The notes below the pieces were generated by a model. That model ran no database searches. It was not told where the DNA came from and was given only the letters and a program-made list of their open reading frames with translations. Below, piece by piece: positions 983 to 55,148 of a DNA stretch of 55,148 nt (position 1 is its first letter; each line of letters opens with the position of its first letter). This DNA comes from a virus (lineage: Duplodnaviria > Caudoviricetes): positions 1 through 55,148 of IMG/VR virus record IMGVR_UViG_3300032257_000016. The stretch is one strand, 5' to 3'. Both the position numbers and the translations under genes were made by a program.

Positions 983-1014
983 GGGTGTACCCTCCATAAA
1001 GGTATGGTTTGGTA

Positions 1015-1026
1015 GCACTCATGCGC
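1015..1026 (-). promoter_or_regulatory. Leader RNA hairpin copy 1, GCGCAUGAGUGC
   Basis: Exact 12-mer also at 48087 and 52539; 32 nt upstream of ATG982. Confidence 0.8.
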
Positions 1027-1047
1027 TGATTAAAAATGAATTAAGCT

Positions 1048-4200: not shown

Positions 4201-4212
4201 GCACTCTTGCGC
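4201..4212 (-). promoter_or_regulatory. Leader RNA hairpin copy 2 (variant GCGCAAGAGUGC)
   Basis: 11/12 match to the other three copies; intergenic, 26 nt upstream of ATG4174. Confidence 0.75.
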
Positions 4213-32600: not shown

Positions 32601-35600
32601 ACTTTCGCTTATGTTCTTGTTTATTTCAGGAACTAGCGTCTTATCATTATACTCAAGGGCAGGGGCAAGCAGGTTCATTGCATGCTCAGACGCTGTTTTA
32701 CCGTCTAATGACCTTTCAATCTCCTTCTTCACTTCTTGTGGCGTTGGAGGCAAATTTGTTCGCTTAACAGAATATTTACCGATCATTGCGTCAGACAGCA
32801 ATGGCCGTGAATTATCCGTACCTTCATCAAGTACGTGCTCTTCCAACAGCACGGCATCAAATGGAATTGTTCTTGCTATAAGCTCGTTTCTGCCATTTTC
32901 ATTCAGATATTTAATATAATCGAGATATTCAGATTCAACGCGATCATAGAACTCAGCCTGAATCTTTACTGGCATCAGAGCTAGTCTGCCAGTAGCGTTC
33001 CTAGCAACATTCTGAACGCTAGGCGTTTCACCGTCCAAGTCAAATCCGATTTGGAGAAAAGCATTAAGTTCTTTGTTTTCATCCAGGTACCTGGCAACTA
33101 CCTCGTCACCGTATTTATTCATGAAATCTACAGCTTCTACGCTGGTGTCAGAGCTTTCATTGCTCGAAGTATTAGCGTTAAGCTGCTTCATTTTCATTGC
33201 GGTAACAGCTTGAGGTCGCTTTTCAGAAGGAAGGCTTGAAGAGAATATTCTATATTCGGGCAGCACTACCTGCCCTGTCCTATTAACCCTTCCCAGCATC
33301 TGCATGAATATGTTTATATCAAGCGAAGCCTGGCCAACAATCATGTATCTTGGCCGCTGATCCTGAAACTTCTCTGAAGCATGGGCGCTAATACCTGTCG
33401 CTCCAGCTGCATTGGCAATAACAACATCGAGCGTCCCATTATTGAATTCAGATATTGTATTTACGCGACCGCCTTTCTCTTCTTTGTCAATACTGGAGAG
33501 AATTGCATTGCCTTTATCATCATACGTTACCGACCTTGTTCTTCCTGTAATCTCTTTAACCGAGTACCCTGCATCTTGAATTCGCTGTTTAATGCGGTCA
33601 ATAGGCGAGGCGCTTAGATCAGCATCGAGACTGTCAATTAAATCTTGCGCCCATTCATACGCATTCTGTGCTTCCTGTGACAGCTGATGAAGAGGAACAA
33701 TAATGCTATTCTTTTTGCCCTTATCGTCCTTATAGCTGATATTCCTTGTCCGTTTCAGATTCCGGCTTAATACCACCCTGTAATCAAACCCTGTCAGCAA
33801 GTCACCTTCTTTTAGCTTATTGAACGCAACATGATCGTCGAGAAATGAACCCATTGTGGCATCAATGGCGATAAATGGTTTTTTGCCTGCCTTTAATCCC
33901 TCAATAGCCATGTCAGCAATACGGTCTGTTTTAATAGACAGTATCATTTGTGATATTGAGTTATGCACAACCGAAGTGAAATTAGCATGATGAACGCCGG
34001 CAGAAGCATTATTGCCTGATCCAGTTGCAGACCCGCCGAATTCAGCCTCTATTTCTGCTTTAACAAGCTCGAAGTCTTTATTATGGAAAATCCTGTCGGC
34101 ATCAACGATAGCTCTTAATCGCCTGGTGACTTCATTGGAGTATTCTTCATCACGCTGCTGGCTTTTTTTGTCAGGGTCAATGTAAGTAGGTAAGTCGATA
34201 CCTTCCCATGATCGCTCTCTACGAATGAACTGCCCTGCTCGTGTCAACTGATTAGAAACCATCTCCATCAATGGGACTCCGCCGCTAACGACGGACTCCA
34301 CTAGCTCTTCCATTGTGTCGGTTGCTTTTGAAATATCAGTCAAGAAGTAGACCGGCATGTTACTCGGTCGTTTTGCATAAGTTGCTGACAAATACACAGC
34401 CCGGTCTGACTGCTCAAGAACGGCCTTTATAAATTCTCCGGTACTTGAGTCTCCTGCTGCATTATGCGATTCATCGAGAACAAACACGGCATTAGAAGCT
34501 AATGACCTTAATACATCGCGCCTTTGGTTTTCAGTGTTGATCTGGGCGTATGTTGTAAATAACGCATCAGTCCCCTTTGGTAGCGATTTTTCATTAATAA
34601 TCTTACTAAAGATCGGCTTCAATTTTCCTGCTGTCTGCTTAAATAATGCTTTTTTGGTTCCATGTTCAATAACAGCTTCGCCGGCATTGGTTAAAAGTGG
34701 AGTTATATCACTTCCAATATCCTTCAGGTCATAAAACATGTCGGTATAAAGAGTTGGTTTAACGGATATAAACACCGGCGTAAATCCATTTATTAGCGCC
34801 CATCGAATAACTGCTGCTGCTTGGCGTCCTTTACCCACACCAGTCTGATCGCCAATAATTAATGCGCCACCGGTCTTTATCTGATCGATAGCCATGGCAA
34901 CAGAGTCGATCTGTAGACCCATAAGGGCATCAAAAGCTTCATCTTTCGACTTATAGCCAAGCTCATTCACAACAAAGTCATCAATGTTCCCGTATTTTGC
35001 TACAATGTCAGATAGGGCTGCTTGCACAGCATCAGCCTGATTGGTTGGCACCAGCACATTTCCAGAAGTGTTTTCAGACATTGATGGATATGAAGTCTGG
35101 AACTCGCTTCCGGTACTCTCTTTCTTATTGGATTTATTAGGCTTTTCTGGACTCTTCTTTGATGGTGAAACTATCTTCACGATACCAGCCTTAATATCCT
35201 GCTGGAACTGCTTCAGATAAGGTCGAATTGTCTTACCCCAACGCTCTGAGGCCATCTTAATGAATGATTTAAACGCTTCTTTTAGTGATGCTGCAGATGA
35301 TAACGCATGCTCAAGAGCCTGCTTGAAAAGCGGCTGTGCTTTTTGGTAGGTTTCTTCGTTGAAGTCTTTGCGCTTGCTGAACTTAATGCCGTCTTTACCG
35401 AATAGGTCATCAAGATCATTAATAGCATCGCCAAACTCATTTTCAGCATCATCAGTGCTTTGCTCGTCTTTTCCGAACTCCGCATCCAGCAGAGAGTCAA
35501 AGTCTTCCTCTGAAAAATCCGCTGCATTTAGATCTGGCTCAAATACTCCGGTAGAGTCATTTCCTGCATCTGTCGGACTGTCGGCAGATCCTGAATTCCC

Positions 35601-38600
35601 TGTTCGTTCTCCATTAGTTCCTTCATTACCTGCCCCACTAGAGACTCCATCCCCGGCATTACTTCCACTATCACCATTCCCAGATCCGCTATTGGTGGTT
35701 CCTGTAGCCGAAACGCCTGATCCAGACTGGCCTCCACTATTTTCATTACCTGGCCTTGATCCTCCTGCTCGACCAGATCCTGTATTCGGCTTGCCAGGAT
35801 CTCCCGGTAATCCACTGGACTCGGTGCCTCCTGATTCTCCGGTATTTCCACCGCCATCAACGCCCGTTTCTCCGGTGAATCCTTCAGGCTGGGTATCCAA
35901 GGCTTCAAATTCATACCCCTGGATTTCCTGATATTTTCGATATAGCTCTTCATAACTGTTTACTCTCTTGATTGCACCACTTTTCGGTGCTTTCTTGGTT
36001 GAACTCTTCCGTCCATCAATAGCGATTATCCTGACAGGCCATCCAGCGCCCTGCCGCTTATACATATCGCCGCTTACCTCAAAATGCTCAGTAACATTAT
36101 AATGAGAATACAGGTAATTCAGGAACACGCGGTCTTTTGATGTAATCGCGCCTTCATTCTTGTTTGCTCCCAGTATAAGCGTAGCTTTACCGGTATCACT
36201 CATTTCGCTTAACGCTTTAGCGGCGATTAGATGGTCGATCTTTTCTAAAGTATAGCCGTCAAATTCTGTTTTTTCAGCCAGAGAGCCAAATGGAGGATTG
36301 GTTATAATGCTCTCAAACTTCTTATCATAAGAGAATTCATGGGTTGTAGCGTCAAAATTGGACACACTTGCATAAGGAAGGGTGTCCTTTAATCGACTAT
36401 TCCTATCCGCGTCCAGTTCATTGGCAAATACGCTGCTGCGCAGGTCTGAGTCAATAAGCAGCATGCCATTACCAGCCGTAGGCTCATAAATCCAGTCGCT
36501 ATTTTTTGTGTCAGACAGCCTGGCCGCTAAAAACGCCAGTGGCGCGGGTGTGCTATACGCCTGATTATTGGCGCTGGCTGTGGTCTGAAGATTAAGATTA
36601 GGCTGACTGTTATATAGACCGAGCAATGACTCAAATATCATCTTGTCGCCGACTTGTTCCGATTTTCCGCCACGGAATTCGCTATGGTCTTTAATTATAG
36701 CTCTTGATCGCATGACTATCGCAGCCTCAAGATCTTCCTGAGCCTGCTTCAATCTTGCGTGGTCAATGTCTTTTACCGGTACGCCATCATGCTCTGCAAC
36801 CAGCTTCTTGAGTGCATTGTTGTCTTTGGGCATGCTTCCGTCATAAATGGCGCGATATAATTTTCGTATAAGGTCGTTACCGCCGAGAATGCCAATACTT
36901 AAATCATCTTCTTCTCTTGATTTTTCGTCCCTTATCGCTTTAATCCAGGCATCAATCATACCCTCTACTTTTAATCTTAGTTTGGTTACTTGGGTTTTAA
37001 TATCAGCTGACTCATAATCGCTGTTAACAGAAACACCTTTGCTGTCAAAAGTTATGTTTTCCATTAAGCCAGCAAAAAGATCCTGCATGGCTTTACGCTC
37101 TTTGGAATTCGGGTAAGGTCTACCCTTATATAATGGCTTTCCGATCTTGTCAGCCTCAACCCAATCTGAGACAAGGTAAGTATTTTCATCACCAGTTAGA
37201 ACATCATAAATATAAGACTCCCCCGCCCTGGCGAACAATTCTTCTCGATTGTTCCAGTATGGTCTTTTCTTATTCCCGCCTTTTTCGATTTCGTCAGCAT
37301 CGTTCTTATAATCAGTCTGTTTTGTCAGAGATAGGCGACGAAGAGCCATTCTTGTGCTCTCGTTGGGAGAATACCGGCTATGCTTTCTGCCCTTGATATA
37401 CCAGTAGCGATTACCAGTAAGATAAGGATGCAGCTCTTTCTTTATGCCGTCAATGGTCTTAATTCTCTCAGATAGCGCGTCAACAATATCGCTAACAATA
37501 GAGGACTGATTATCGCTAAGCAAAGAACTACGCAAAGCATAATCCAGAGCATGAAACCACTCGTGAGCAACAGATCCATCACCACGAGTCTTGGTTACAT
37601 TGATAACCGGCACTGTGCCGCCTTTAGGGTGAGGATGACTTGGGCTATAGTGCGCAGAATGGCGACCCCGACCAAGTGCACCAATCGTAAAATGAAGCGT
37701 CCCTCCAAGAGAAATGTCTTTAGGCTTGATTCCGAGCGTATCAGCAAGATCCATGAATGCGTCATAAGCAAAATTTGCCCGTTCCTGACCCTCTTTAGAT
37801 CTAACGTATTTTCCGCCAGTTACCGCAGCAAACCCAAACTTCTTACCAATGTCCTCAAGCGTTACGTCTTCACCATTCCTGTGATCCGTTTTAAATCCAC
37901 TGCGCTTTATCGGTAATGATGGACGCCTTAACGGCTTCCTTCTTCCTGTGCTGCTTTCACTGTCCTCATTTTTCAACAATTCGCCTAAGTTATATCCAGG
38001 ATCGTATCTATTTCCATCGGGATCAATCCTTAATGCGTAGGATTGGTGATAAAAGTTACCCCTAAAAACATCGATAAATGAGGCTCTGACTTTATCAAGA
38101 TAGTCGCCAAACGACTCTGCTGCAGATCGAATATTATCTTTTCCTGAAACAGCCTGCGCGATAGCAGAAACATGATCGATATACTCTTTAGCAAGCTCTT
38201 TGATTTCATCAAGACCGCCATCCTTTCTTGATTTTTCGCTGATAACAGTCTTAAATGACTTCTGCCAAGACCGTCTACCGCCGCCAAATTGATGGCCAAT
38301 CCATTCTGAAACTGGTTCAATTCCATTGCGAATTGTCTCAAGATAGCCAGTCAATCCTAGAGTTGCATTTTCACCAGTAACAATAGGAAACACATTAGGT
38401 CTTGACGCGGCGTTCAGTATATCTTTAACGGCCTTATCCAGATTGGCGTCGTCAGCATCATCTATCTTGCGTGTGGCTTCATCCTGCGCCCGGCGAAGTT
38501 CTTCACCGTAATTCTTTAGCTTTTCACCGCGATCAGCATTCTCGGCCTTGCGCTTTTCTTTTTCAGCCTTATTGAATGCTGCTTTTGCTTTCCGGCTCAC

Positions 38601-41351
38601 AGCCGAAATAAAATTATCATCGAATACGGATTCGTCAGGCTTCCCGCTTGCATGAGTAACATGATTAATCAGCGCAACACGGTCTTTATGCTCTTTATCA
38701 ATAGCCAGGCCGAGTTCATCATGCAGATAATCCTCAGTCACCTTTAATATTGACTCTTTCAGTTTGGCCTCGTCCTTGGCATTACTAATTACCTCAGTAT
38801 TGGCCACGGCATGCTTAATAGACTCTTTTTTGATAGCCAGAATGTCTTTTTTCTTGAATTTTGGCTTCTCAGGCTTATTCGTTTTTTCCTTTTCAGGAAT
38901 CGTCGCTTCCGGAGCACTGTCTTTACCTGAAGCACTGTTAATCCATGCCTTCGCATCTTCCTCTGTTTTTGCAATGTACGCAGGATCACCATTGTCGTCG
39001 TTTAAGTCGTAAACATACCAGCCGCCTTCTTCTTCGCCAGCCGGTGATTCGCCATAAGCATAGTCACCAACTCTGGTGTAATCATCGGGAATCGTCGCTT
39101 CCGGAGCACTGTCTTTGTCATCACTTCTTGAAATAGGCTCTGCGTTTCCATCTTCGATAATATTGCCTTCGCTATCCTGCCAAGTATCAGCCTGAGCCTC
39201 CCCATCTTCCGTATATGCAATGACTTTTGTTCCGTCAGTGAGTTCATGTGTTGGCGTGAAGTCGGCATCTGTCACCGGCTCATTGGTAGAATAGTTATCA
39301 GCAATATACTTGCGAATACTCGCAGCTGCTTCTTCTGCCTGCTTTTTAACAAACTGACTTCGTGCAGCTTTAGCGGTCTGTTCTAACTGAGACGCTATTG
39401 ATGTCAATTCATCAACGTCATTAATGGATTTATCAGCTGCATCAAGAAAACCTTTAACCTTTTTATTTATTTTCCCGACAGGGCGCTTGATCCCAGTTCC
39501 TGTGTCATTTTCATCTTCATCTCGATAAATATGATATTCACCGTGCCTTCTTTCGTTGGCACCAAGCTGAACAGCTGACTCATTTATAAAAGATTGAACT
39601 GTATTATCAACTGGATCACCGTTATAGCCGTTCTTGTAATTCTTTATGAATGATTTCACCTCGTCATCATTAAGGTCTACACCACCATCATTCGTGGCAA
39701 CATGAATGGCCTGCTGAATACCAGATACGGCCTCGTCTGTAAGGTCATTTGTCAAGTCATGAGGAAGCTTATATTTTTTAATATCAGGTTTTGACTCAGG
39801 CTCAACTGGATCAGGAGCGACTGGATCAACTGGCTCAGGAGGAATGATAGGCTCAACTGGATCAGCTGCTTGTGGATTAGTTAGGTCACGCCGACCATCG
39901 GTTACTTTTTCAACATTACTGGAAAAATCAGGACGAGACAGCCCTTGACTACCAGGAATACCATCAACAAGCGTTCTACGTGGAGGAGGTAAGACCGGAT
40001 CACCTGTATTAGCAAGACCCGCCGCCTGACCTGCTTTTTCAGCCGCTTTGGCCATGGTTCCTTTTGGTGTTATACCCTCAACGCCTGACCCGGTAAATCC
40101 GGCAGAATCATGCTGACGATACTGCTCTGAATAATTCTGCTGTTCAGGTGTTTTAGTAGCGCCATCAGCGGTACCATAAAAATCAGGCGGAGCGGTTAAT
40201 TGTGGTGCATTTGGGTCGAATACTCGTTCTTTCCCCATCTCAGCGGCAAGATTATCGAGGCTGTAGTCACCGGGAGCCGTATTATTTTCATCAATAGAGT
40301 CATTATTGTTACCCAGATAACTTGATACACCACCTGCAACTCCACCCATTCCCACACCGGCAAGCATGCCCATGGCGGCGCCTTCAGGTACGCCATCCAT
40401 GATAGGCTTACCCATGGCGACGTTAGACCACATTTGCTCTTGAATTGACTGAGGCAGTTCCTCAAAAACACCCTCAGATATTCCTGACTCAACGAAGCTT
40501 CTGGCTACACTCTTGTTAGTTGCTTTAAGTCCACCTGTTGCAAGCATGGTGTCAATATCAGCAATTCCGAATTTCTGCGCAATTCTTCCGCCAACAACAC
40601 CAAACACACCTGTTCCAAGTCCAGACGCGCCTGCAGCAGCAGACTGTTTATCTGTCAGAAGCCCGTCTTTCGTATTTTGTCTTGTCTGTTCGGCAGCCAT
40701 TCCAGCGCCAACAATGCCTTCACCTGTGGCGCCTGCAACATAGCCTGGGACTTTCGGCGCTAGTTTTGTCAATCCCCTTGCTATCACGCCTCCACTTAAC
40801 ATGGGAGCAATCGACTCGCCGACTGTGTGGGCTATCGTGCTTGGGTTTTCAAGTGCTGCCACTACGGTTGGAACAAACCCTTTTGCAGCAGCGACCTTGG
40901 CGTTGGCTTCTTTTTGCGCATCGGTGTACCAAGTGTTTAATGTTTCTTTGGCGTCTTTTGGTCTAAACCCAAGATGATCTTCTGCATACTTTCCTGCCCT
41001 GCCACCAGAAAAAAGGTCAGCAATACCTAGCGCGACCTCTGGAACTGATATTGCGCTCTTGATAGCGGTTACGCCTGCGTCACTTATCGTTCCAATAACT
41101 CCACGCTCTTTTTCTGGCTTCGCCGAGTTAGTAAGATGGTCATAGTTAATTTTTGGGCGAGTTAATCTACGCGCCTTTACAGAGGCTTTTGCCATGGTTG
41201 ATGGCTTATCAGGAGTTGGAGCAACAAATTGATTATACTGGGGTAGTTTAAGAGGTAGTGGCTTGCTTTCGGTTGGGGTAGCGTTAATTTCTTCTATTCC
41301 GTCAGCAGGATTCACTGGCGCACCCTTAATTAAATGGTCATACATTCCCAT
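26631..41351 (-). CDS. Giant DarB-like polyvalent (probably injected) protein: LPD1-like HExxH domain, N6-adenine MTase, strawberry-notch-type SF2 helicase, zincin-like domain, PLxRFG and C-terminal region
   Basis: 4906 aa; AHEWFHALD/ELFARA, QAYSTP/EPTAGNG/NPPFG, GDQTGVGKG/DESH/SAT/GRVNRTGQ, LHETLAH/AEEV, IEEVQS/PDAPF, PLMRFG. Confidence 0.9.
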   Translation of the reverse strand: MGMYDHLIKGAPVNPADGIEEINATPTESKPLPLKLPQYNQFVAPTPDKPSTMAKASVKARRLTRPKINYDHLTNSAKPEKERGVIGTISDAGVTAIKSAISVPEVALGIADLFSGGRAGKYAEDHLGFRPKDAKETLNTWYTDAQKEANAKVAAAKGFVPTVVAALENPSTIAHTVGESIAPMLSGGVIARGLTKLAPKVPGYVAGATGEGIVGAGMAAEQTRQNTKDGLLTDKQSAAAGASGLGTGVFGVVGGRIAQKFGIADIDTMLATGGLKATNKSVARSFVESGISEGVFEELPQSIQEQMWSNVAMGKPIMDGVPEGAAMGMLAGVGMGGVAGGVSSYLGNNNDSIDENNTAPGDYSLDNLAAEMGKERVFDPNAPQLTAPPDFYGTADGATKTPEQQNYSEQYRQHDSAGFTGSGVEGITPKGTMAKAAEKAGQAAGLANTGDPVLPPPRRTLVDGIPGSQGLSRPDFSSNVEKVTDGRRDLTNPQAADPVEPIIPPEPVDPVAPDPVEPESKPDIKKYKLPHDLTNDLTDEAVSGIQQAIHVATNDGGVDLNDDEVKSFIKNYKNGYNGDPVDNTVQSFINESAVQLGANERRHGEYHIYRDEDENDTGTGIKRPVGKINKKVKGFLDAADKSINDVDELTSIASQLEQTAKAARSQFVKKQAEEAAASIRKYIADNYSTNEPVTDADFTPTHELTDGTKVIAYTEDGEAQADTWQDSEGNIIEDGNAEPISRSDDKDSAPEATIPDDYTRVGDYAYGESPAGEEEGGWYVYDLNDDNGDPAYIAKTEEDAKAWINSASGKDSAPEATIPEKEKTNKPEKPKFKKKDILAIKKESIKHAVANTEVISNAKDEAKLKESILKVTEDYLHDELGLAIDKEHKDRVALINHVTHASGKPDESVFDDNFISAVSRKAKAAFNKAEKEKRKAENADRGEKLKNYGEELRRAQDEATRKIDDADDANLDKAVKDILNAASRPNVFPIVTGENATLGLTGYLETIRNGIEPVSEWIGHQFGGGRRSWQKSFKTVISEKSRKDGGLDEIKELAKEYIDHVSAIAQAVSGKDNIRSAAESFGDYLDKVRASFIDVFRGNFYHQSYALRIDPDGNRYDPGYNLGELLKNEDSESSTGRRKPLRRPSLPIKRSGFKTDHRNGEDVTLEDIGKKFGFAAVTGGKYVRSKEGQERANFAYDAFMDLADTLGIKPKDISLGGTLHFTIGALGRGRHSAHYSPSHPHPKGGTVPVINVTKTRGDGSVAHEWFHALDYALRSSLLSDNQSSIVSDIVDALSERIKTIDGIKKELHPYLTGNRYWYIKGRKHSRYSPNESTRMALRRLSLTKQTDYKNDADEIEKGGNKKRPYWNNREELFARAGESYIYDVLTGDENTYLVSDWVEADKIGKPLYKGRPYPNSKERKAMQDLFAGLMENITFDSKGVSVNSDYESADIKTQVTKLRLKVEGMIDAWIKAIRDEKSREEDDLSIGILGGNDLIRKLYRAIYDGSMPKDNNALKKLVAEHDGVPVKDIDHARLKQAQEDLEAAIVMRSRAIIKDHSEFRGGKSEQVGDKMIFESLLGLYNSQPNLNLQTTASANNQAYSTPAPLAFLAARLSDTKNSDWIYEPTAGNGMLLIDSDLRSSVFANELDADRNSRLKDTLPYASVSNFDATTHEFSYDKKFESIITNPPFGSLAEKTEFDGYTLEKIDHLIAAKALSEMSDTGKATLILGANKNEGAITSKDRVFLNYLYSHYNVTEHFEVSGDMYKRQGAGWPVRIIAIDGRKSSTKKAPKSGAIKRVNSYEELYRKYQEIQGYEFEALDTQPEGFTGETGVDGGGNTGESGGTESSGLPGDPGKPNTGSGRAGGSRPGNENSGGQSGSGVSATGTTNSGSGNGDSGSNAGDGVSSGAGNEGTNGERTGNSGSADSPTDAGNDSTGVFEPDLNAADFSEEDFDSLLDAEFGKDEQSTDDAENEFGDAINDLDDLFGKDGIKFSKRKDFNEETYQKAQPLFKQALEHALSSAASLKEAFKSFIKMASERWGKTIRPYLKQFQQDIKAGIVKIVSPSKKSPEKPNKSNKKESTGSEFQTSYPSMSENTSGNVLVPTNQADAVQAALSDIVAKYGNIDDFVVNELGYKSKDEAFDALMGLQIDSVAMAIDQIKTGGALIIGDQTGVGKGRQAAAVIRWALINGFTPVFISVKPTLYTDMFYDLKDIGSDITPLLTNAGEAVIEHGTKKALFKQTAGKLKPIFSKIINEKSLPKGTDALFTTYAQINTENQRRDVLRSLASNAVFVLDESHNAAGDSSTGEFIKAVLEQSDRAVYLSATYAKRPSNMPVYFLTDISKATDTMEELVESVVSGGVPLMEMVSNQLTRAGQFIRRERSWEGIDLPTYIDPDKKSQQRDEEYSNEVTRRLRAIVDADRIFHNKDFELVKAEIEAEFGGSATGSGNNASAGVHHANFTSVVHNSISQMILSIKTDRIADMAIEGLKAGKKPFIAIDATMGSFLDDHVAFNKLKEGDLLTGFDYRVVLSRNLKRTRNISYKDDKGKKNSIIVPLHQLSQEAQNAYEWAQDLIDSLDADLSASPIDRIKQRIQDAGYSVKEITGRTRSVTYDDKGNAILSSIDKEEKGGRVNTISEFNNGTLDVVIANAAGATGISAHASEKFQDQRPRYMIVGQASLDINIFMQMLGRVNRTGQVVLPEYRIFSSSLPSEKRPQAVTAMKMKQLNANTSSNESSDTSVEAVDFMNKYGDEVVARYLDENKELNAFLQIGFDLDGETPSVQNVARNATGRLALMPVKIQAEFYDRVESEYLDYIKYLNENGRNELIARTIPFDAVLLEEHVLDEGTDNSRPLLSDAMIGKYSVKRTNLPPTPQEVKKEIERSLDGKTASEHAMNLLAPALEYNDKTLVPEINKNISESYSKLSDEDKEKVGAEGNSFPFDDNLSARQHSYQRAVTRKQRHDESVAQIIGAIEKNYLIGNASSHTIDGAHYRGVVTGVKSKWTKGSPSNPFVKSGYSITIRTNSGTGRISLPLSRLMGYQDLGHYGYGGVTQESDIDALFKKAAGHSANDREIRYIATKNLLKAFGSLTSKGEIARFTMKDGSVTDGIVMPGNFDPSTGIKKTLRFGSPAVAIQFLHDNTYDSDVHRLGLHTKDGNLRLTPNYDGSFNLVAAGSKKAGGKWWANTELVSIIGDEFAGSRAVKTAKVPSNKVKSVVDFIYQTDKLFALESMEKLVAPYISKGNSAPDGKPSFSKHSVSANNNRSGGVTEQELQDVIERFKQELGGKLGLDFIIADSQEAAFGEYGASITERVRGAYISARSNKQRSRVIVIRGNLRNIAEAESTLLHETLAHHGLNLFEKDVKTAILRKIHNSRELPAIKKVYRQLIRDGYDLSPAGMAEEVFAYIAENKPNFAIRAWDQIVTIIANALRKYGLLSGKVTKSELRNLVQSIAEGMRQGQQQRTFEDGKEIHFGASDPVFYSKMLDHLIDKLPGSGNAMQLREMVKSWARKGQFKQEELEWSGLVEWLSEQKGKVSKDDIVNFVQANQVQIHETERGESLFRTPMEAKQYLAAQENMSIDEIEKQYAYVNQDAYIEAAEDAAEYEEEKPSYATKHDRYQLKGGKNYRELVMSMPGQIDPYKPDNVHFSEEGGGTAVAWTRFNERTDVDGNRVLHIEEVQSKRHQDGKRDGYAKTETVYIVKNPKGGMEKTVRSIEEGERVIANRRFPDLDNAEDWTIEPKEYPAGAPDAPFKTTWPMLAMKRMIRYAAENGFDRITWTTGDQQSARYDLSSHISNISWDRVSGSSESESALYDITAYKKNSEIALEEHGVNQKRIAVVIGKDLAKSIASDEGSEGVISGTEMKVGGEGMAAFYDKMLPNMVNKYTKKWGVKVGETSITTRKGSGKRLEILSELAGEDVYDASVDEKVHSLDITDKMRDSALSGQPLFSKKTGKEANNPLSSGNVGENDYNSNYEQSSIAGNGGQKSETDTRSPGGDRAQAASGTRTDGRSIPDASVHDEATGFDEDLAGVRFSKKRAEKIRPDTNAFFQAIKDFIAGTKGSLGKDGKILNEVTEKYGFWSKHLGTLDNLARKNPIIEPFMKMAKRMQMDKDEVFAKTNDVVKAYHKLKDDQRKLVDEALFDGTLHERDNGMGIVWRDDQLRDRGLDDTGIAGYHEVRAYFDEMTNDYQNRLLERIGVVLVNGKPETIISGDPSGKVKLDLANKILSDFNKLSGYFPLMRFGNFTLSQYNAEGELVKFETFESLIGRNAAAGKAQRENPENNFKVGRLVKRTGDSMVVDPRMISMLKDYADSAEEAGISDFVDEVEQKMLKEFADKSFRKRFIHRKGTAGYSDDVARTIASYGWSSSNFLAKMKWVPKLQEFQRNLDVKEYPQLHEHISKDIEYLKTPSEEFAAFKSFTFGAYMGFNVKSAAVNLTQIPMTLYPYLANKYGDKKTLAALTQATQDALNPKKVKDRRLRELLQWAEDEGLTMDSYTSDLIGVARGKKLARTRLQSRLIESMTFMFSAAEQYNRRVSVATAYYLNKDVSIEELKKQNGIIEQAVTKTQFDYGKHNRPAVFRGIVGVPLQFHQFSLNYLQFLAGNGGGVGATVRSLAVLFLLAGLMGMPGADDLRALLEFMYQKTTGKHLDFELEARKGIVKLAAEFTSQENAQTIAEAMLRGHVAYTPFDMTGSLSMGRVVPGMSRGFDVAANEGVKKGFTEAATDALGAGAGLVRNVAKGFDQYEASGDIIRGLETALPWKAVGNMLKSYRLTTDGVDRDYAGRVRIAFEPSSAEKLFQFLSFQPSTRSQLYREKNTQRREALFLRAAHNRLIIPLAVAIAEKNEAKKKAARRAIAEWNKSSPKEWRLLMSKVFRAIRRRRKEFEINSKTGRGSSVKQLQGKFNDQSKYFPK
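38896..39116. repeat. Perfect 29-bp direct repeat within the giant gene
   Basis: GGAATCGTCGCTTCCGGAGCACTGTCTTT at 38896-38924 and 39088-39116 (KDSAPEATIP twice). Confidence 0.9.
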
Positions 41352-48062: not shown

Positions 48063-48086
48063 TTAGCACCTCCAGCGGTGATTAAT

Positions 48087-48098
48087 GCACTCATGCGC
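48087..48098 (-). promoter_or_regulatory. Leader RNA hairpin copy 3, GCGCAUGAGUGC
   Basis: Exact 12-mer, 24 nt upstream of ATG48062. Confidence 0.8.
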
Positions 48099-48122
48099 AT
48101 GAAAATAATTGTGATTGTAAAA

Positions 48123-51406: not shown

Positions 51407-52510
51407 TTAGCCAGGATCTTTCGCTGCAGTTTCTGCGGCAATAACACCGAAGTCCTTGCCGTTGTAAGTAGTCTTCTTCACACCGACGATAGAAGAAGTC
51501 GTAATTACAGCCTGATTGCCGTTATCACGAGTTTCTTCATGCCAGTCGTAACGAAGATTGGTACCAGGAGAGCCAAACGCACAAACACCGGCCTGAGCAC
51601 CAAGGAACAGAGCGCGAGACGCTTCAACATTTGAGCCAGCGCCATAGTCATTGAAGCGCACAATACCCTTGTGAGAATGCAGTACAACATTGTTGTACAT
51701 ACCCAGAGCGCCACGGAAGATTGGATTCTTTCGTCCTTCGGCACCTGCAGCAGCTTTTTGAATATCAAGCCATTGACCAGCTGAAGTGTTTGTGCGCATG
51801 TCGAATTCCTGCCATGGATTCATAACCAGACAGTAATGCTCTTCACCATCGACCATCACAGGCTGGATCTGAGGAATTTCAGTAGTACCACCACCCATCA
51901 TAGTCGCACGAGCAACACAGCGATCGACAAGATTAACATCCATTTTGTCGGTTGCGGCAATCGAAGCTTTTGATGTAGCGGAGCCAGCATACAAGATATG
52001 ATCTGTATCTGGAGCAGTCAGGCTATTATTTGCAAAACCTGAGTACGTTGTCGGGAAAATGTAATCCGTGTTGATTCCACGCGCACCAGACAGGTACATG
52101 AAGAACAACTCGTCAAATACACGCGCCCACCATTCAGACTGACGTTTTTTAGCAATCTTGCGCAGGTCATGAAGTGTACGCTTGCGAGTCATGCGACCGC
52201 CAGTATTAACACCACCACGCAGCTGATCGATATAAACACCGTCAGTGTAGAACTTCAGATCTTCCTCGTTTCCATCCAGAGTGTTATCACCCTCAACAGG
52301 CTGCATCTTGAGCTGAACAGACAGATCAAACGAAATGTATTCACCTGCATCATTCTCAAGATGGTTCAGCATCTGGATAGGTGTGCTTGCTTCTTCACCG
52401 TAGCCCATGAACTTCTTAGTGAAGTATGATTTACGGCCAACATCGACTGCCAGTGCGGCAGACCATTTATTTACTGCTTTTGCATCATTTAAACCTATAA
52501 TGGTCTTCAT
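51407..52510 (-). CDS. Major capsid protein (N4-gp56/DUF4043 family)
   Basis: L.GNEEDL.FY.D...IDQ.R, GG.M..KRT..DLR, NPIF.G.LG.Y..V, LGAQA, KDFGVI. Confidence 0.93.
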   Translation of the reverse strand: MKTIIGLNDAKAVNKWSAALAVDVGRKSYFTKKFMGYGEEASTPIQMLNHLENDAGEYISFDLSVQLKMQPVEGDNTLDGNEEDLKFYTDGVYIDQLRGGVNTGGRMTRKRTLHDLRKIAKKRQSEWWARVFDELFFMYLSGARGINTDYIFPTTYSGFANNSLTAPDTDHILYAGSATSKASIAATDKMDVNLVDRCVARATMMGGGTTEIPQIQPVMVDGEEHYCLVMNPWQEFDMRTNTSAGQWLDIQKAAAGAEGRKNPIFRGALGMYNNVVLHSHKGIVRFNDYGAGSNVEASRALFLGAQAGVCAFGSPGTNLRYDWHEETRDNGNQAVITTSSIVGVKKTTYNGKDFGVIAAETAAKDPG

Positions 52511-52538
52511 GTGTGCTTACCTCTATTTTCAAAGTAAG

Positions 52539-52550
52539 GCACTCATGCGC
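52539..52550 (-). promoter_or_regulatory. Leader RNA hairpin copy 4, GCGCAUGAGUGC
   Basis: Exact 12-mer, 28 nt upstream of the MCP ATG; preceded by a second hairpin GATATGC-gggt-GCATATC (52563-52580). Confidence 0.8.
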
Positions 52551-52590
52551 CGGTTTAAATTTGATATGCACCCGCATATCGGCTAAAAAA

Positions 52591-52773
52591 CTAACTAAAT
52601 TTTCGTAATGGTGGTCTTGTCAAGGTTGAAACTGGCTTACCTATCTTAATGGATTTGTCAGCGTCAATTTTAAGCCTTGCTTTTCTCCCTGATTTTTTTT
52701 CAAGAGTCACGGCTATCCGTCCATTATCAATAGCAACTCTATCGCCCTCTTCCAGTTCAACGAATAAAGCCAT
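52591..52773 (-). CDS. Divergent CsrA/RsmA-fold RNA-binding protein
   Basis: LFVELEEGDRVAIDNGRIAVTLEKKSGRKARLKIDADKSIKI aligns by eye with CsrA [41 protein letters not shown]. Confidence 0.72.
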   Translation of the reverse strand: MALFVELEEGDRVAIDNGRIAVTLEKKSGRKARLKIDADKSIKIGKPVSTLTRPPLRKFS

Positions 52774-52774
52774 A

Positions 52775-53623
52775 CTAAGCCCTTAAATAATTGTCACGGT
52801 CTTTGTCAGACATTCCAGCCAGGGCAGACTCAAGATCCATGCCCTCAAGTTTATCTAAGACATTGTATTTCGAGTCTGTCACCTGATTGTCGTCAGCAGC
52901 AGGCATGTTCGCCAGTGTTTTCGGCACGTCTACCTCTTTTGATCGACTGTTGGTCTTGGTTGTCACGGTTTTTTTATTCGTGTCTGCTACTGGATCATCA
53001 TTACCAGGACTTTTACCCATGCTCGCCTCAACAAGCTTGTGCGCTTCATTAAGGAACCAATCGCCCTCCTTCCCGGTATTGGACTCTTCCTGATATAGAG
53101 TTCTCAATGCGGAATCAAGTGCGCCGAACCGAATAGGGTCAGATTCATATTCTGAGTGATCGCCATAAAATCGATTCTGCTGCCAATCCCATAGCTGGTC
53201 GGCTGACTGCTCATTATGCTTCTCAGCCATTTTCGCCATGATCTGTTCATCACGAAGATTGTCGCGCTGAGCATTGTAATCACTTAGGCTTATATCGCCA
53301 GCCTCAAAGACGTCATCCAGTTCGGTTAACTGCGATGCAATGTCCTCGGCGACACTGGCATCCAATTTTGTAACAAACGGATTATCTGCGTCCTGATCTT
53401 CATCAGAGTCAGCTGTCGTTTCTTCTTCGGCATCATCGGGGTCTTCATCATTAGAGCCTTTGTCTTCCGGCTCTTCATTATCATTAGAATCATCTTCTTC
53501 AAGATCATTCTCGAAAGCGTCATCGTCGCCGCTGCCCTCTTCAAGTCCATCTTCGAGTGCTGCCTGTTCATCTGGAGACATGCCTGCAATCTCTTCTTCG
53601 GTGTAGTCGTCTTCAATAGCCAT
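52775..53623 (-). CDS. Scaffolding protein
   Basis: Very acidic 282 aa upstream of the MCP; P.TL..MPAAD...LD.L.G.DLE.ALA.M C-terminus. Confidence 0.8.
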   Translation of the reverse strand: MAIEDDYTEEEIAGMSPDEQAALEDGLEEGSGDDDAFENDLEEDDSNDNEEPEDKGSNDEDPDDAEEETTADSDEDQDADNPFVTKLDASVAEDIASQLTELDDVFEAGDISLSDYNAQRDNLRDEQIMAKMAEKHNEQSADQLWDWQQNRFYGDHSEYESDPIRFGALDSALRTLYQEESNTGKEGDWFLNEAHKLVEASMGKSPGNDDPVADTNKKTVTTKTNSRSKEVDVPKTLANMPAADDNQVTDSKYNVLDKLEGMDLESALAGMSDKDRDNYLRA

Positions 53624-53694: not shown

Positions 53695-55148
53695 TCAACT
53701 TATAATTGTTTGATTCAGCCTTTCAGTAATCGTTGTTGCATTTAATTGTTCGGTTATGGTTGTATTATTCAGCTGCTCAGTGATTGTTGTTGAGTGCTGA
53801 TGATAAAAACTACCGATACCAAGAGCCGTTAAATTGGCAGATACATTAATTGACGCATTCACCCCAGCAATCATTCTTATTGCCGTGGTCAGTGCAGCTG
53901 AAGTGTTAGCTGAACCGGAAACACTTGATTTTAGCGAAGCTGACGAACTTGACAGCGAACCAGAGACAGTCGCGGATAATGAAGCAGCTGCCTTAAACGA
54001 AATACCCGTTGTTAGTCCAGGCTGCAATGTTGCAATTGCATTTGCAGTACCTTTTAACTGTATTTCTGTAGTAAGCCCCGCAGATGCTGTCGCATTTACT
54101 TGAGCGTTAGCCCTCAATGTAGCGCCGCTACTTAATGTTCCTGACGTTGATGCAGTTAAAGAAACTGGCGCTTTAAGAGTTATTTCAGTTGTTAACCCAC
54201 CGGTTGCATTTAATGATACTGATGGAGTCGCCTTAAATAAGTCAGCCCCAACTGTCAGCCCGGCAGAAACATTCGCAGTGATACTCGCTGGCGCTTTTAG
54301 TGTTACTGCTGTAGTAAGCGATCCAGAGACTGAGGCCTGCGCATTGACTGCCGCATTAAATGAAGCCGTTGTTGACAGGTTTCCTGATGCCGTCATTTGT
54401 GCATTAACTGACGACTTAAAGGATATAGAAGTCGTTAATGCACCTGAAACCGTAGCCGATCCATTAGACAGCGCGTTAAATGTAATTGCGCTTGTCATTG
54501 CCCCACTGATAATAGTGGAGCCTAACACTGACGAACTCAGTGAAATCTCTGTAGTCAGTCCAGCTGACACTCCGGCTGAAGCTGAGATAGAGGACTGAAA
54601 TGCAGCACCGCCGCCACCTGCAGCATCATCAACCTGAAAATCATAAAACTTACCGTTATTATTTGCGTGTAAGTTGTGATGAAATCCTGCTCTTGTTCCT
54701 GTCGTTATGCCGCTATCCGTTGCTGTCAGATATGTCGTGCCATTAATCTTCCACTCAAGGCTTGAACCGTTAACGCTGATTTCATTCGTATATGTTGTGT
54801 TTAAGTCCCATGCTGTTACTAAGTCGCTGGCAAGTGTTGTCCATGTATTATTAACAATTCTATCTATGTATATGCTTGGATCACCAACCCGGTGATTAAA
54901 GTTATAGTTTGTTTCAGAAGCGCTGGCTAAAACATTATTATTACGCGCCATAATGGAATAACGATTATCAGCGCCACCACAATTCCAGTTTGCCGTTATC
55001 CACTGATCTGTTGTTCCGGCATCAATTATAGCTCCACTGTTTGCAGCGGTTATATAAAGGCCACCTGAGCCGTCGAGCTTTACATTTCCAGAATTATCCG
55101 TCCAGCCACCACCCACGACATCAGTATCAGGCGTGTGCGCGTTTAGGT
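53695..55148 (-). CDS. Fibre-like protein: lectin/ConA-like domain, 13 ~20-aa repeats, TTITEQLN repeats (5' end beyond the window)
   Basis: Frame is open to the window edge (..LNAHTPDTDVVGGGW..); repeats read from the translation. Confidence 0.75.
   Translation of the reverse strand, partial: LNAHTPDTDVVGGGWTDNSGNVKLDGSGGLYITAANSGAIIDAGTTDQWITANWNCGGADNRYSIMARNNNVLASASETNYNFNHRVGDPSIYIDRIVNNTWTTLASDLVTAWDLNTTYTNEISVNGSSLEWKINGTTYLTATDSGITTGTRAGFHHNLHANNNGKFYDFQVDDAAGGGGAAFQSSISASAGVSAGLTTEISLSSSVLGSTIISGAMTSAITFNALSNGSATVSGALTTSISFKSSVNAQMTASGNLSTTASFNAAVNAQASVSGSLTTAVTLKAPASITANVSAGLTVGADLFKATPSVSLNATGGLTTEITLKAPVSLTASTSGTLSSGATLRANAQVNATASAGLTTEIQLKGTANAIATLQPGLTTGISFKAAASLSATVSGSLSSSSASLKSSVSGSANTSAALTTAIRMIAGVNASINVSANLTALGIGSFYHQHSTTITEQLNNTTITEQLNATTITERLNQTIIS

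What the first reader, a model, noticed from the sequence alone, without database searches (positions are those of the whole stretch)
52510..52773. Candidate phage-encoded CsrA-like translational switch: a divergent CsrA-fold protein next to its probable RNA target
Seen: the 60-aa ORF 52591..52773 sits between scaffold and major capsid. It reproduces the five-beta-strand CsrA pattern (G-D/E, V-x-I, V-T, G-x-x-x-R-h-x-h-x-A-x-K-x-h-x-h), but has an acidic first strand, a KKSGRK loop, Lys at the R44-equivalent position and no obvious C-terminal helix. The GCGC-AUGA-GUGC hairpin that recurs before three other late genes lies 40 nt past its stop codon. Established: CsrA/RsmA dimers bind ANGGA hairpin loops near ribosome-binding sites. 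Inference: this protein has been retargeted to an A(U/A)GA tetraloop lacking the GGA core, making a private regulon that host CsrA and CsrB-type sRNAs would not control. CsrA-like annotations may already exist in related podophages; I cannot tell whether the target motif has been described.
Basis: partly seen in the sequence, partly recalled or inferred. Interest (0 to 1): 0.9.

Follow-up and report, generated by a model that had tools for sequence, protein, structure and literature searches.

The report
Phage CsrA-like protein and capsid-leader hairpin
A small phage protein with the fold of the bacterial RNA-binding regulator CsrA sits just before the capsid gene, next to a conserved RNA hairpin that is probably its target and that can alternatively pair with, and hide, the capsid start codon.

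Summary
ORF 52591-52773(-) encodes a divergent CsrA-fold protein. It matches PHROG 8397 "CsrA-like regulator" (E 1.8e-11) but stays below the Pfam CsrA cut-off. A profile of its family hits solved CsrA/RsmE sequences (E 6e-9). The predicted fold and the interleaved dimer match CsrA.

The gene is not new. The same gene in the same place (scaffold, CsrA-like, capsid) is annotated in Bcep22, GP4, Itty13, ZX1 and others.

The hairpin GCGC-A(U/A)GA-GUGC occurs four times in the window. All four copies are on the sense strand, 22-31 nt before a late-gene start.

New here:
- The hairpin is conserved before the capsid gene in 53 of 67 non-redundant relatives that carry the gene. The GUGC-type hairpin is in 0 of 8 relatives that lack it.
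- The second loop base varies (G, U, A, C), even within one phage. G gives a textbook CsrA site, so the non-GGA loop is a family-wide relaxation and not this phage's own invention.
- The loop and 3' arm are complementary to the capsid start region, with compensating changes between clades. This gives a two-state leader.

Binding is inferred, not shown. I found no published description of the target.

The parts
52591..52773 (-). Gene for a 60-aa divergent CsrA-like protein (PHROG 8397, Bcep22 gp54 type).
   Evidence: ORF. PHROG match at E 1.8e-11. Pfam CsrA scores 18.4 bits, below the cut-off of 27. Family profile against solved CsrA/RsmE sequences gives E 6.4e-9. Foldseek ranks 1-13 are all CsrA-family chains. 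Dimer ipSAE is 0.50 against 0.00 for the best control.
52538..52551 (-). Hairpin A, GGCGC-AUGA-GUGCC, in the capsid leader. Putative binding site of the CsrA-like protein.
   Evidence: 24.5 bits. Homologous hairpins in 53 of 67 gene-carrying relatives. Stem covariation shown.
52508..52523 (-). Capsid translation start region, GAGG-UAAGCACAC-AUG. It can pair with the loop and 3' arm of hairpin A, hiding the start codon and part of the Shine-Dalgarno region.
   Evidence: Minimum-energy fold of the leader is -15.2 kcal/mol, z -3.34, with 1 of 200 shuffles as good. Forcing the local hairpin gives -11.7 kcal/mol.
52563..52580 (-). Additional hairpin GAUAUGC-GGGU-GCAUAUC between the stop of the CsrA-like gene and hairpin A. 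Role unknown.
   Evidence: Read directly from the sequence. Not studied further.
51407..52510 (-). Major capsid gene, the putative regulated target.
   Evidence: Pfam PF13252 at E 1.7e-58. PHROG 334 at E 8e-115.
52775..53623 (-). Acidic scaffold-like gene. Its stop lies 1 nt before the ATG of the CsrA-like gene, so the two are in one operon.
   Evidence: ORF. PHROG 8246 at E 1.1e-35. Same position as the gene before the CsrA-like gene in Bcep22, Itty13 and ZX1.
48085..48100 (-). Hairpin B, AUGCGC-AUGA-GUGCAU, 22 nt before the start (48062) of a 194-aa gene (PHROG 8123) and after the head-closure gene.
   Evidence: 21.6 bits. The local hairpin is the minimum-energy fold.
4201..4212 (-). Hairpin C, GCGC-AAGA-GUGC, 26 nt before the start (4174) of a 126-aa gene that lies between terminase and portal.
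   Evidence: 21.1 bits. The local hairpin is the minimum-energy fold.
1014..1027 (-). Hairpin D, AGCGC-AUGA-GUGCU, 31 nt before the likely ATG (982) of a head protein gene (PHROG 240).
   Evidence: 22.3 bits. The leader folds with CAUG of the motif paired to the start codon, z -2.53.

Best explanation
The 60-aa ORF encodes a divergent, CsrA-fold, homodimeric RNA-binding protein. It belongs to a phage-specific family that is a core gene of the head-gene cluster of Bcep22-like podophages (those with the 'N4-gp56 family' capsid).

The stem-loop GCGC-A-N-G-A-GUGC is a conserved element of the sense RNA in the leaders of the capsid gene and a few other late genes. It is the homologue of a canonical CsrA-type site, with AGGA or CAGGAUG in the loop in relatives.

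The most likely reading is that the protein binds this hairpin. It would read the closing C-G pair, the loop A and GA, and the G.U-containing stem, but not the second loop base.

In the capsid leader the loop and 3' arm can instead pair with the start region, which hides the start codon. Protein bound to the hairpin form would then keep the start region open. Capsid translation would switch on only after the upstream scaffold/CsrA-like operon has been translated. This resembles Mu Com acting on mom (recalled) and CsrA acting on ymdA.

What is shown: the fold, the predicted dimer, the conservation of the RNA element, the co-occurrence of gene and hairpin, and the compensating changes in the alternative pairing. 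What is inferred: the binding itself and the direction of regulation.
For: Protein:
- PHROG 8397 match at E 1.8e-11.
- A profile of 46 family members hits 9 CsrA/RsmE/RsmA sequences of solved structures at E 6.4e-9 to 5.6e-4.
- AlphaFold model with pLDDT 88.7.
- Foldseek ranks 1-13 are all CsrA-family chains, with TM 0.59-0.70 normalised to the query and rmsd about 1 A for the crystal and cryo-EM chains.
- Homodimer ipSAE 0.50 against 0.00 for the best of 3 controls. That mark was reached by 20 of 30 proteins solved as pairs and 1 of 23 solved as single chains. Runs agree in at least 88% of contacts, and the partner's pLDDT is at least 72. Contacts are strand 1 with strand 4' and strand 2 with strand 5'. 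CsrA dimers are solved, so the pass may come from memory.

Synteny:
- A CsrA-like ORF was found in 72 of 84 loci, usually directly before the capsid gene. One further divergent copy is in L026.
- The gene is annotated as CsrA-like in 9 named phages I looked at: directly before the capsid gene in Bcep22, Itty13, ZX1, Skulduggery, PEp14 and Parlo, one gene removed in GP4 and Cimandef, and elsewhere in the late region in F116.

RNA element:
- Among 37 capsid-leader hairpins, stem pair 5 is G-C in 31, U-A in 4 and A-U in 2. Stem pair 7 is G.U in 33, U.G in 2, G-C in 1 and U-A in 1.
- The unselected next pair is formed in 29 of 37, with 5 pair types.
- The G.U pairs make sense only in the sense RNA strand.
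- A looser CANGAG hairpin definition gives 120 sense against 22 antisense copies in 65 loci.

Co-occurrence, in 76 non-redundant leaders:
- Gene present and hairpin present: 53.
- Gene present, hairpin absent under my strict rule: 14. Most of these have a variant ANGA hairpin.
- Gene absent and hairpin absent: 7.
- Gene absent and hairpin present: 1. This is a different GCUUC-UGGA-GAAGC hairpin.
- One more leader has the hairpin but only a weak match to the gene.
- Three whole genomes without the gene (G001, 100% complete; Vibrio phage D80; phi345) have no GUGC-type motif.
- PBC5, Atu_ph08 and POI1126 carry the gene elsewhere in the genome. They have 4-5 strict motifs each, against 0-1 in controls.
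- In F116 the gene has moved. An AGGA hairpin lies 24 nt before the next gene, and the capsid gene has no leader.

Alternative pairing:
- 31 of 36 capsid leaders have a minimum-energy fold without the local hairpin. In 29 of 36 at least two bases of the start codon are paired.
- The hairpin's loop plus 3' side pairs with its own downstream region at a mean of -11.2 kcal/mol. With the hairpin of a phage that has a different loop the mean is -7.95, and 0 of 300 swaps reach the own value.
- Compensating examples: AUGAC with CACGUCAUG (POI1126), AGGAU with GCACAUCC (Bcep22), and AGGA-GUGU with CACACUCC (GP4).

Precedent: CsrA activates ymdA by opening a hairpin that sequesters the Shine-Dalgarno sequence. 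CsrB repeats are CAGGA(U/A/C)G in hairpin loops (PMC7652899, passages read).
Against: - No binding or expression data exist for this phage or any relative that I could find.
- The window protein alone does not reach the Pfam CsrA cut-off. It finds no CsrA among solved structures.
- It lacks the C-terminal helix and has Glu where CsrA has Arg/Lys7.
- The R44-equivalent column is basic in only 23 of 46 family members, so the CsrA mode of RNA contact may not hold.
- The loop lacks the GGA that was invariant in the CsrA SELEX experiments.
- Only two of the four leaders in the window (capsid and head protein) show the start-hiding fold. The other two do not differ from shuffled sequence (z -0.36 and -0.31).
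- AAGA-class capsid leaders show no special pairing: -7.4 kcal/mol for their own hairpins, and AUGA hairpins from other phages do better at -9.0.
- The loci are related to each other, so the co-occurrence and swap statistics overstate independence.
- The inner four stem pairs of alignment A3 are paired by my selection rule.
- 14 of 67 gene-carrying leaders fail my strict hairpin rule.
Confidence: 0.55

Rival explanations
1. The hairpin and start-region switch is a purely cis-acting RNA device. It could be a folding timer, a 5' stabiliser or an RNase processing site that needs no phage protein. The CsrA-like protein would then act on host mRNAs, as a 'moron' gene, a host-takeover factor or an anti-defence factor. 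This is what the literature has suggested.
For: The JC1 paper calls the gene a moron and reports one peptide in virion mass spectrometry (PMC9144972, passages). PMC8450108 proposes that mobile elements exploit RsmA-like proteins against CRISPR-Cas (passages). The long-range fold is favoured by energy alone in 31 of 36 leaders. Two of the window's four hairpins have no alternative pairing.
Against: The gene sits at a fixed place inside the late head operon in phages of alpha-, beta- and gamma-proteobacteria and of a cyanobacterium. It is therefore a core gene, not a variable cargo gene. Gene and hairpin are present together and absent together. In relatives the hairpin is a textbook CsrA-type site. 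Burkholderia hosts and S. meliloti are said to have no CsrA of their own (PMC7366521), so a GGA hairpin there has no other obvious reader.
Confidence: 0.2
2. The protein binds the hairpin but represses, as canonical CsrA usually does. One dimer would bridge the hairpin and a second site at the Shine-Dalgarno sequence or start codon (in the window the start reads CAUGA, like the loop). This would limit capsid synthesis relative to scaffold.
For: CsrA usually represses by excluding the ribosome, and dimers bridge two sites (PMC7652899). Tandem hairpins about 24-35 nt apart occur in many relatives, including L009, L012, L014, L018, L020, L023, L029 and L056-58. The window's capsid start is C-AUGA-A.
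Against: The capsid protein is needed in the largest amount of any virion protein. The leader already hides its own start codon without any protein, so a further repressor seems redundant. A second CAUGA at the start is not conserved: most relatives have CAUGG.
Confidence: 0.15
3. The protein and hairpin act on the transcript rather than on translation. Binding near the 5' end would protect late mRNAs from RNase E (as CsrA does for flhDC). Alternatively it would load an antitermination complex (as lambda N does at boxB; recalled).
For: In named relatives the hairpin follows a sigma-70-like promoter by about 10-20 nt. The promoter reads TTGCAA/TTGTAA, then 17 nt, then TATAGAAT, GATAAT or TATTTA. 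This is seen in Bcep22, GP4, Itty13, ZX1, PEp14 and PBC5. In PBC5 both divergent late leaders, capsid and endolysin, carry the hairpin. The flhDC mechanism is described in PMC7652899.
Against: No sigma-70-like promoter is found between the CsrA-like gene and the capsid gene in the window. The compensating changes tie the loop to the translation start region, not to the 5' end. Terminators downstream of the hairpins were not examined.
Confidence: 0.08
4. The motif works as DNA, as a late promoter or an operator half-site, and the RNA hairpin is incidental.
For: The sequence of the stem is strongly conserved (6 invariant columns). The motif lies near promoter-like sequences in named relatives.
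Against: The conserved G.U pair (33 of 37) and its U.G flips would be mismatches in DNA and in the antisense strand. Outer stem pairs covary freely. All four copies in the window and nearly all in relatives lie on the sense strand.
Confidence: 0.02

Closest known systems
CsrA/RsmA/RsmE family of bacterial RNA-binding regulators (Pfam PF02599; solved structures 2jpp, 1y00, 1vpz)
   Same: A protein of about 60 residues with the same beta-strand core and the same interleaved homodimer in prediction. Profile-level sequence homology to the family. In relatives the putative target is a short hairpin with AGGA or CAGGAUG in the loop, like CsrB repeats and the SELEX consensus. Some targets have two sites per leader.
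   Different: Below the Pfam cut-off on its own. No C-terminal helix. The first strand is acidic or neutral (conserved Asp6; Glu8 in the window). The R44 position is not conserved. The K-S-G...R-L motif is the most conserved part. The first G of GGA is free to vary in the putative site, while the stem sequence, including a G.U pair, is conserved. The gene is a core part of a phage head operon and occurs in phages of hosts said to lack CsrA.
Annotated 'CsrA-like regulator' genes of Bcep22-like phages (Bcep22 gp54, GP4 gp04, Itty13 gp22, PEp14_0009, Parlo gp62, Skulduggery gp12, ZX1; PHROG 8397)
   Same: The same family and a position just before the capsid gene: directly after the scaffold-like gene in most (one or two small ORFs intervene in Bcep22 and GP4). 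A homologous leader hairpin is present in every one I examined.
   Different: The window protein is among the more divergent members. tblastn finds nothing in the phage collection at E <= 0.01, and there are no close relatives in IMG/VR. Its loops are AUGA/AAGA with 4 nt, whereas most of the named phages examined have 5-nt loops (AGGAU, AAGAC, AUGAC, UGGAU); GP4 and Cimandef have a 4-nt AGGA loop.
CsrA activation of E. coli ymdA, and phage Mu Com activation of mom translation (Com/mom is recalled, not read here)
   Same: A small protein binds a leader site, and binding disfavours an RNA structure that hides the ribosome-binding region. This is the mechanism I propose. The ymdA mechanism was read in PMC7652899.
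   Different: Here the binding site itself (loop and 3' arm) is the strand that pairs with the start codon. The two states therefore exclude each other directly. Nothing has been tested experimentally.
Coat-protein/operator hairpins of RNA phages (MS2, PP7) and lambda N/boxB (recalled)
   Same: A phage-encoded small protein reads a short hairpin with a specific loop in the phage's own RNA.
   Different: Those proteins have different folds. The MS2 hairpin contains the start codon and represses translation. N/boxB acts on transcription.

Membership tests
CsrA/RsmA family (Pfam PF02599) | Sequence reaches the curated Pfam gathering score. | tested here: not met
   18.4 bits against a cut-off of 27, E 0.0021. 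phmmer of the single protein against sequences of solved structures finds no CsrA.
CsrA/RsmA family (Pfam PF02599) | Homology detectable at the profile level. | tested here: met
   A profile of 46 phage family members hits RsmE (2jpp) at E 6.4e-9 and 8 further CsrA-family sequences down to 5.6e-4. The match covers residues 1-51 of the target.
CsrA/RsmA family (Pfam PF02599) | Beta-strand core superposable on solved CsrA structures. | tested here: met
   The model has pLDDT 88.7. Foldseek ranks 1-13 are all CsrA/RsmA/RsmE chains. TM normalised to the query is 0.59-0.70, rmsd is 0.8-1.8 A for the crystal and cryo-EM chains, and probability is 0.99-1.00. E-values are weak (0.03-0.16) because the protein is small.
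CsrA/RsmA family (Pfam PF02599) | Interleaved homodimer, with strand 1 beside strand 4' and strand 5 beside strand 2'. | tested here: met
   Prediction only. ipSAE is 0.50 against 0.00 for the best control. The mark was reached by 20 of 30 solved pairs and 1 of 23 single chains. Runs agree in at least 88% of contacts and the partner's pLDDT is at least 72. Contacts are residues 3-8 with 31-37' and 13-15 with 44-45'. Because CsrA dimers are solved, the pass may come from memory.
CsrA/RsmA family (Pfam PF02599) | C-terminal alpha-helix after strand 5. | tested here: not met
   DSSP finds no helix in the model. The tail (residues 47-60) is proline-rich with pLDDT 67-83. The tails are not alignable across the family.
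CsrA/RsmA family (Pfam PF02599) | Critical RNA-binding residues L4 and R44 (named in PMC7652899, figure 1 legend). | tested here: inconclusive
   From the alignment, L4 corresponds to Val5 (the column is hydrophobic in the family) and R44 corresponds to Lys46. That column is K in 14, R in 9 and P in 8 of 46. The position equivalent to Arg/Lys7 is Glu8 in the window; it is R or K in 27 of 46.
CsrA/RsmA family (Pfam PF02599) | Binds GGA motifs in hairpin loops of RNA. | not testable with these tools
   The putative site in the window has UGA or AGA, not GGA. Homologous sites in relatives have GGA in 12 of 39 4-nt loops and in several 5-nt loops.
PHROG 8397 'CsrA-like regulator' | Match to the family profile. 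| tested here: met
   E 1.8e-11, 44.9 bits, residues 1-48 on profile positions 1-46 of 64.
Translational activators that open a hidden start region (CsrA-ymdA, Mu Com-mom type) | The leader can form a structure that hides the ribosome-binding region, and the protein's site overlaps or abuts that structure. | tested here: met
   Prediction only. The window's capsid leader folds at -15.2 kcal/mol with the start codon paired, z -3.34. The same is seen in 31 of 36 relatives, and own-versus-swapped hairpins show compensating changes. It is not met for hairpins B and C of the window.
Translational activators that open a hidden start region (CsrA-ymdA, Mu Com-mom type) | Protein binding raises translation. 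| not testable with these tools
   No expression or binding data. No sequencing run listed as holding this stretch is on record as RNA.

The most novel reading that the evidence does not exclude
Bcep22-like podophages carry a self-contained post-transcriptional circuit. A CsrA-derived protein reads a C-A-N-G-A-G tetraloop (or pentaloop) hairpin. The loop and 3' arm of that hairpin are also the strand that hides the capsid start codon. The protein therefore acts as a translational timer for head assembly, and it works even in hosts that have no Csr system. Because the first G of GGA is not read, the pair is partly orthogonal to host CsrA and its sponge RNAs.
Probability: 0.35. Interest if true: 0.8.

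Novelty: new variant of a known kind. Interest (0 to 1): 0.62.

Why it matters
Phage-borne CsrA homologues have been catalogued since 2011 and were surveyed in 2020-21. They have been treated as cargo genes acting on the host, and no target has been named in the papers I could read.

This work gives them a concrete candidate target that is testable and lies inside the phage's own late genes. These include phages of Burkholderia, Ralstonia, Klebsiella, Erwinia, Pseudomonas, rhizobia and Microcystis.

If true, it would explain three things:
- why the gene sits between the scaffold and capsid genes;
- how a CsrA-type regulator can work in hosts without a Csr system;
- how much of the GGA rule of CsrA recognition can be relaxed.

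It would also offer a compact protein/hairpin pair for synthetic control of translation.

Tried and rejected
- **Close DNA or protein relatives of the window.** Megablast of the region against the phage collection found nothing. tblastn of the 60-aa protein found nothing there at E <= 0.01. The IMG/VR scan with the single protein confirmed no relative. I reached relatives through the capsid protein instead.

- **Rfam.** No meaningful family in 52400-52700. The best hits are chance matches at E 0.6-8.

- **Promoter scan.** No sigma-70-like site in 52400-52900. The hairpin is flagged as terminator-like (5 pairs, tail TTACTTTGAA). Relatives mostly lack a U-rich tail, so I rejected the terminator reading.

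- **Degenerate pattern SCANGAGYGS.** It is too loose in GC-rich genomes, where control counts are similar. Only the GUGC-type strict motif is informative.

- **Protein/loop covariation.** Inspecting the proteins grouped by loop type, and looking at column statistics, I saw no residue that tracks the second loop base. No tree-aware test was done.

- **Host-CsrA insulation.** Phages of gamma-proteobacterial hosts have AAGAC three times and AUGAC once, but also UGGAU and AGGA. Phages of alpha-proteobacterial hosts, which are said to lack CsrA, have AUGA. There is no clean pattern.

- **Upstream mini-ORF starting at the AUG in the loop.** Rejected, because AAGA and AGGA loops have no AUG and no Shine-Dalgarno sequence precedes it.

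- **Expression data.** No RNA holder was listed for the stretch. The two DNA runs listed may be the source samples.

- **Literature.** Searches found no paper that names an RNA target or tests a phage CsrA-like protein of this family. Gill et al. 2011 (Bcep22) is not held, so I cannot say what it states about the gene. Supplementary tables of PMC7366521 (its list of phage CsrA genes) and the supplementary figure of PMC8450108 were closed, and they may list more members.

- **Correction to my notebook.** It says 30 of 36 leaders lack the local hairpin. Recounting the output gives 31 of 36.
Full report
**What is there.** The window is an IMG/VR virus record of 55,148 bases, estimated 77% complete. 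It comes from a microbial-mat metagenome. On the minus strand the order is as follows:
- an acidic 282-aa scaffold-like gene (52775-53623);
- the 60-aa ORF (52591-52773), which starts 1 nt after the scaffold stop;
- an 80-nt spacer;
- the major capsid gene (51407-52510; Pfam Phage_capsid_3, E 1.7e-58).

The nearest named phages are Bcep22, GP4, Itty13 and PBC5, at about 54% capsid identity.

**The protein.**
- On its own it is a weak CsrA match: Pfam 18.4 bits against a cut-off of 27, and no CsrA hit among solved structures.
- It matches PHROG 8397 'CsrA-like regulator' at E 1.8e-11.
- I collected 80 related loci through the capsid protein. Together with three named loci and the window this makes 84 loci. 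A homologous small ORF is present in 72 of them, nearly always directly before the capsid gene. One more divergent copy is in L026.
- A profile of 46 of these proteins hits RsmE (2jpp) at E 6.4e-9. It also hits eight further CsrA-family sequences of solved structures.
- With that alignment AlphaFold gives pLDDT 88.7. Foldseek ranks 1-13 are all CsrA/RsmA/RsmE chains, with rmsd about 1 A over 44-46 residues for the crystal and cryo-EM chains.
- Two copies are predicted to form the interleaved CsrA-type dimer. ipSAE is 0.50 against 0.00 for the best of three controls. That mark was reached by 20 of 30 solved pairs and 1 of 23 single chains. Runs agree in at least 88% of contacts, and the partner's pLDDT is at least 72. 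Because CsrA dimers are solved, this may be likeness recalled by the model.
- The family's most conserved residues are Asp6, Gly10, Lys27-Ser28-Gly29 (Gly in 46 of 46), Arg33 and Ala38. The R44-equivalent column is basic in only 23 of 46.

**The gene is already known.** The same gene is annotated as a CsrA-like regulator in these phages:
- directly before the capsid gene in Bcep22, Itty13, ZX1, Skulduggery, PEp14 and Parlo;
- one gene removed from the capsid gene in GP4 and Cimandef;
- elsewhere in the late region in F116.

What the papers say:
- A 2020 survey lists Bcep22, GP4, DC1, BcepIL02 and others among phages with csrA. It notes that Burkholderia hosts have no chromosomal csrA (PMC7366521, passages).
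- The JC1 paper treats the gene as a moron (PMC9144972, passages).
- Another paper proposes an anti-CRISPR role for phage RsmA (PMC8450108, passages).
- I found no paper that names an RNA target. Gill et al. 2011 was not available.

**The hairpin in the window.**
- GGCGC-AUGA-GUGCC lies at 52538-52551(-). That is 39 nt after the stop of the ORF and 27 nt before the capsid ATG.
- The core 12-mer is exact at 1015, 48087 and 52539. It differs by one loop base (AAGA) at 4201. All four copies are on the minus strand.
- A covariance model of the hairpin finds these four at 21-24.5 bits and nothing else above 11.5 bits.
- The four sites precede these genes:
  - the capsid gene;
  - a 194-aa gene after the head-closure gene;
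  - a 126-aa gene between terminase and portal;
  - a head protein gene after portal.

**The hairpin in relatives.**
- Upstream of the capsid start, most relatives have the same element at -19 to -59.
- I aligned 37 proximal hairpins, chosen for a stem of at least 4 pairs and a CANGAG loop. Stem pair 5 is G-C in 31, U-A in 4 and A-U in 2. Stem pair 7 is G.U in 33, U.G in 2, G-C in 1 and U-A in 1. The next pair outward, which was not part of the selection, is formed in 29 of 37 with five pair types.
- The conserved G.U pair and the strand bias (120 sense against 22 antisense copies of a looser definition in 65 loci) point to an RNA element on the mRNA strand.
- The second loop base varies. Among 50 leaders there are 18 AUGA, 12 AGGA, 8 AAGA, 1 ACGA and 11 five-base loops such as AGGAU, AAGAC, AUGAC and UGGAU.
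- With G in that position the site is a textbook CsrA site. Compare the CsrB repeats CAGGA(U/A/C)G and the SELEX consensus RUACARGGAUGU (PMC7652899).
- One phage can carry two loop types, so that base is probably not read.

**Co-occurrence.** I started from all loci with an assigned capsid start. I dropped 16 duplicate leaders, two loci without an assigned start (L030, L036) and two without upstream DNA (L041, L087). That left 76 leaders:
- 53 have both the gene and the hairpin.
- 14 have the gene but fail my strict hairpin rule. Most of these carry a variant. One subfamily has GGCGCC-G-ANGA-U-GGCGCC followed by an unpaired GCAGGAGUG.
- 7 have neither.
- 1 lacks the gene and has a different hairpin, GCUUC-UGGA-GAAGC.
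- 1 has the hairpin and only a weak match to the gene.

Whole-genome checks agree:
- G001 (100% complete), Vibrio phage D80 and phi345 have no CsrA-like gene and no GUGC-type motif.
- PBC5, Atu_ph08 and POI1126 have the gene far from the capsid gene. They still have 4-5 strict motifs each, against 0-1 in controls. In PBC5 the motif is present in both divergent late leaders.
- In F116 the gene has moved. An AGGA hairpin lies 24 nt before the next gene, and the capsid gene has no leader.

These loci are related to one another, so the counts are not independent events.

**A second structure.**
- The loop and 3' arm (CAUGAGUGC) are the reverse complement of the capsid start region. That region reads GCACUCAUG in many relatives and GCACACAUG in the window.
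- The window's capsid leader folds at -15.2 kcal/mol with the start codon and part of the Shine-Dalgarno region paired (z -3.34). With the local hairpin forced the energy is -11.7 kcal/mol.
- In 31 of 36 leaders the minimum-energy fold lacks the local hairpin. In 29 of 36 at least two start-codon bases are paired.
- The duplex energy of the hairpin's loop and 3' side with the start region averages -11.2 kcal/mol. For shuffled start regions the average is -6.1, and 0 of 200 shuffles reach the real value.
- When each leader is given the hairpin of a phage with a different loop, the mean drops to -7.95, and 0 of 300 swaps reach the own value.
- AGGA and five-base-loop leaders prefer their own hairpin by about 3 kcal/mol over others of the same class.
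- Compensating examples: AUGAC with CACGUCAUG (POI1126), AGGAU with GCACAUCC (Bcep22) and AGGA-GUGU with CACACUCC (GP4). In the gamma-proteobacterial clade the 3' arm ACGUGCGG pairs with CCGCACGU just before the Shine-Dalgarno sequence.
- Against a universal rule: AAGA-class leaders show no special pairing. Hairpins B and C of the window keep only the local hairpin.

**How it most likely works.**
- Shown: a CsrA-fold protein predicted to form the CsrA-type dimer; a conserved sense-strand hairpin of the CsrA-site type; joint presence and absence of gene and hairpin; and a co-evolving alternative pairing with the start region.
- Inferred: the protein binds the hairpin form. This would keep the loop and 3' arm away from the start region and allow capsid translation once the scaffold/CsrA-like operon has been expressed.
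- The direction could be the opposite (repression by bridging the hairpin and the start). The effect could instead be on mRNA stability or read-through, since in named relatives the hairpin lies about 10-20 nt after a promoter-like sequence.
- The window itself shows no sigma-70-like promoter there.

**Verdict.** The specific claim of retargeting away from GGA is better described as a family-wide indifference to the first G. The gene is known. As far as my searches reach, the target hairpin, its spread and the start-hiding alternative structure are not described in print. I rate this a new variant of a known kind, of moderate to high interest, with binding still to be shown.

Noticed in passing
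window 26631-41351 (-): A single open reading frame of 4,906 aa in the late region. Giant virion proteins are known from Bcep22-like phages (recalled). I did not analyse it.
   Followed up: no
L022:3973-4296 and L008:959-1231: Two relatives encode a protein with two CsrA-like repeats in one chain, a tandem duplication. It might fold as a single-chain pseudo-dimer.
   Followed up: no
L045, L050, L061, L066, L069, L072-L077, L059, L084, about 100-150 nt upstream of the capsid start: A second conserved hairpin of the form CCUGUUCAAACAUAGCAGG recurs in one subgroup of relatives. It is also present in some that lack the CsrA-like gene. Its function is unknown.
   Followed up: no
L090 (Escherichia phage phi345), 40 nt upstream of the capsid start: This relative of Stx-converting phages has no CsrA-like gene. 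It has a GCUUC-UGGA-GAAGC hairpin at the end of the scaffold gene. This GGA-loop hairpin could be a site for host CsrA, or it could be chance.
   Followed up: partly
L088 / record NC_006552 (F116), 16460-16600 and 33363-33569: F116 carries two CsrA-type genes. One is canonical (N-terminus [10 protein letters not shown]...) and the other belongs to the phage CsrA-like family (p47).
   Followed up: partly
window 52563-52580 (-): A 7-bp hairpin, GAUAUGC-GGGU-GCAUAUC, lies between the stop of the CsrA-like gene and the motif hairpin.
   Followed up: no
window 53695-55146 (-): An ORF that runs off the contig end has many repeats of the form SG-LTT----LKA after a lectin-like N-terminal part. It sits where relatives have the portal gene; in the window the portal gene is at 1391-3565.
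   Followed up: no
L001, L002, L003, L091, L140, L144 leaders: A conserved sigma-70-like promoter (TTGCAA or TTGTAA, 17 nt, then TATAGAAT, GATAAT or TATTTA) precedes the hairpin in named relatives. In these phages the capsid gene therefore appears to have its own transcript starting just before the hairpin.
   Followed up: partly
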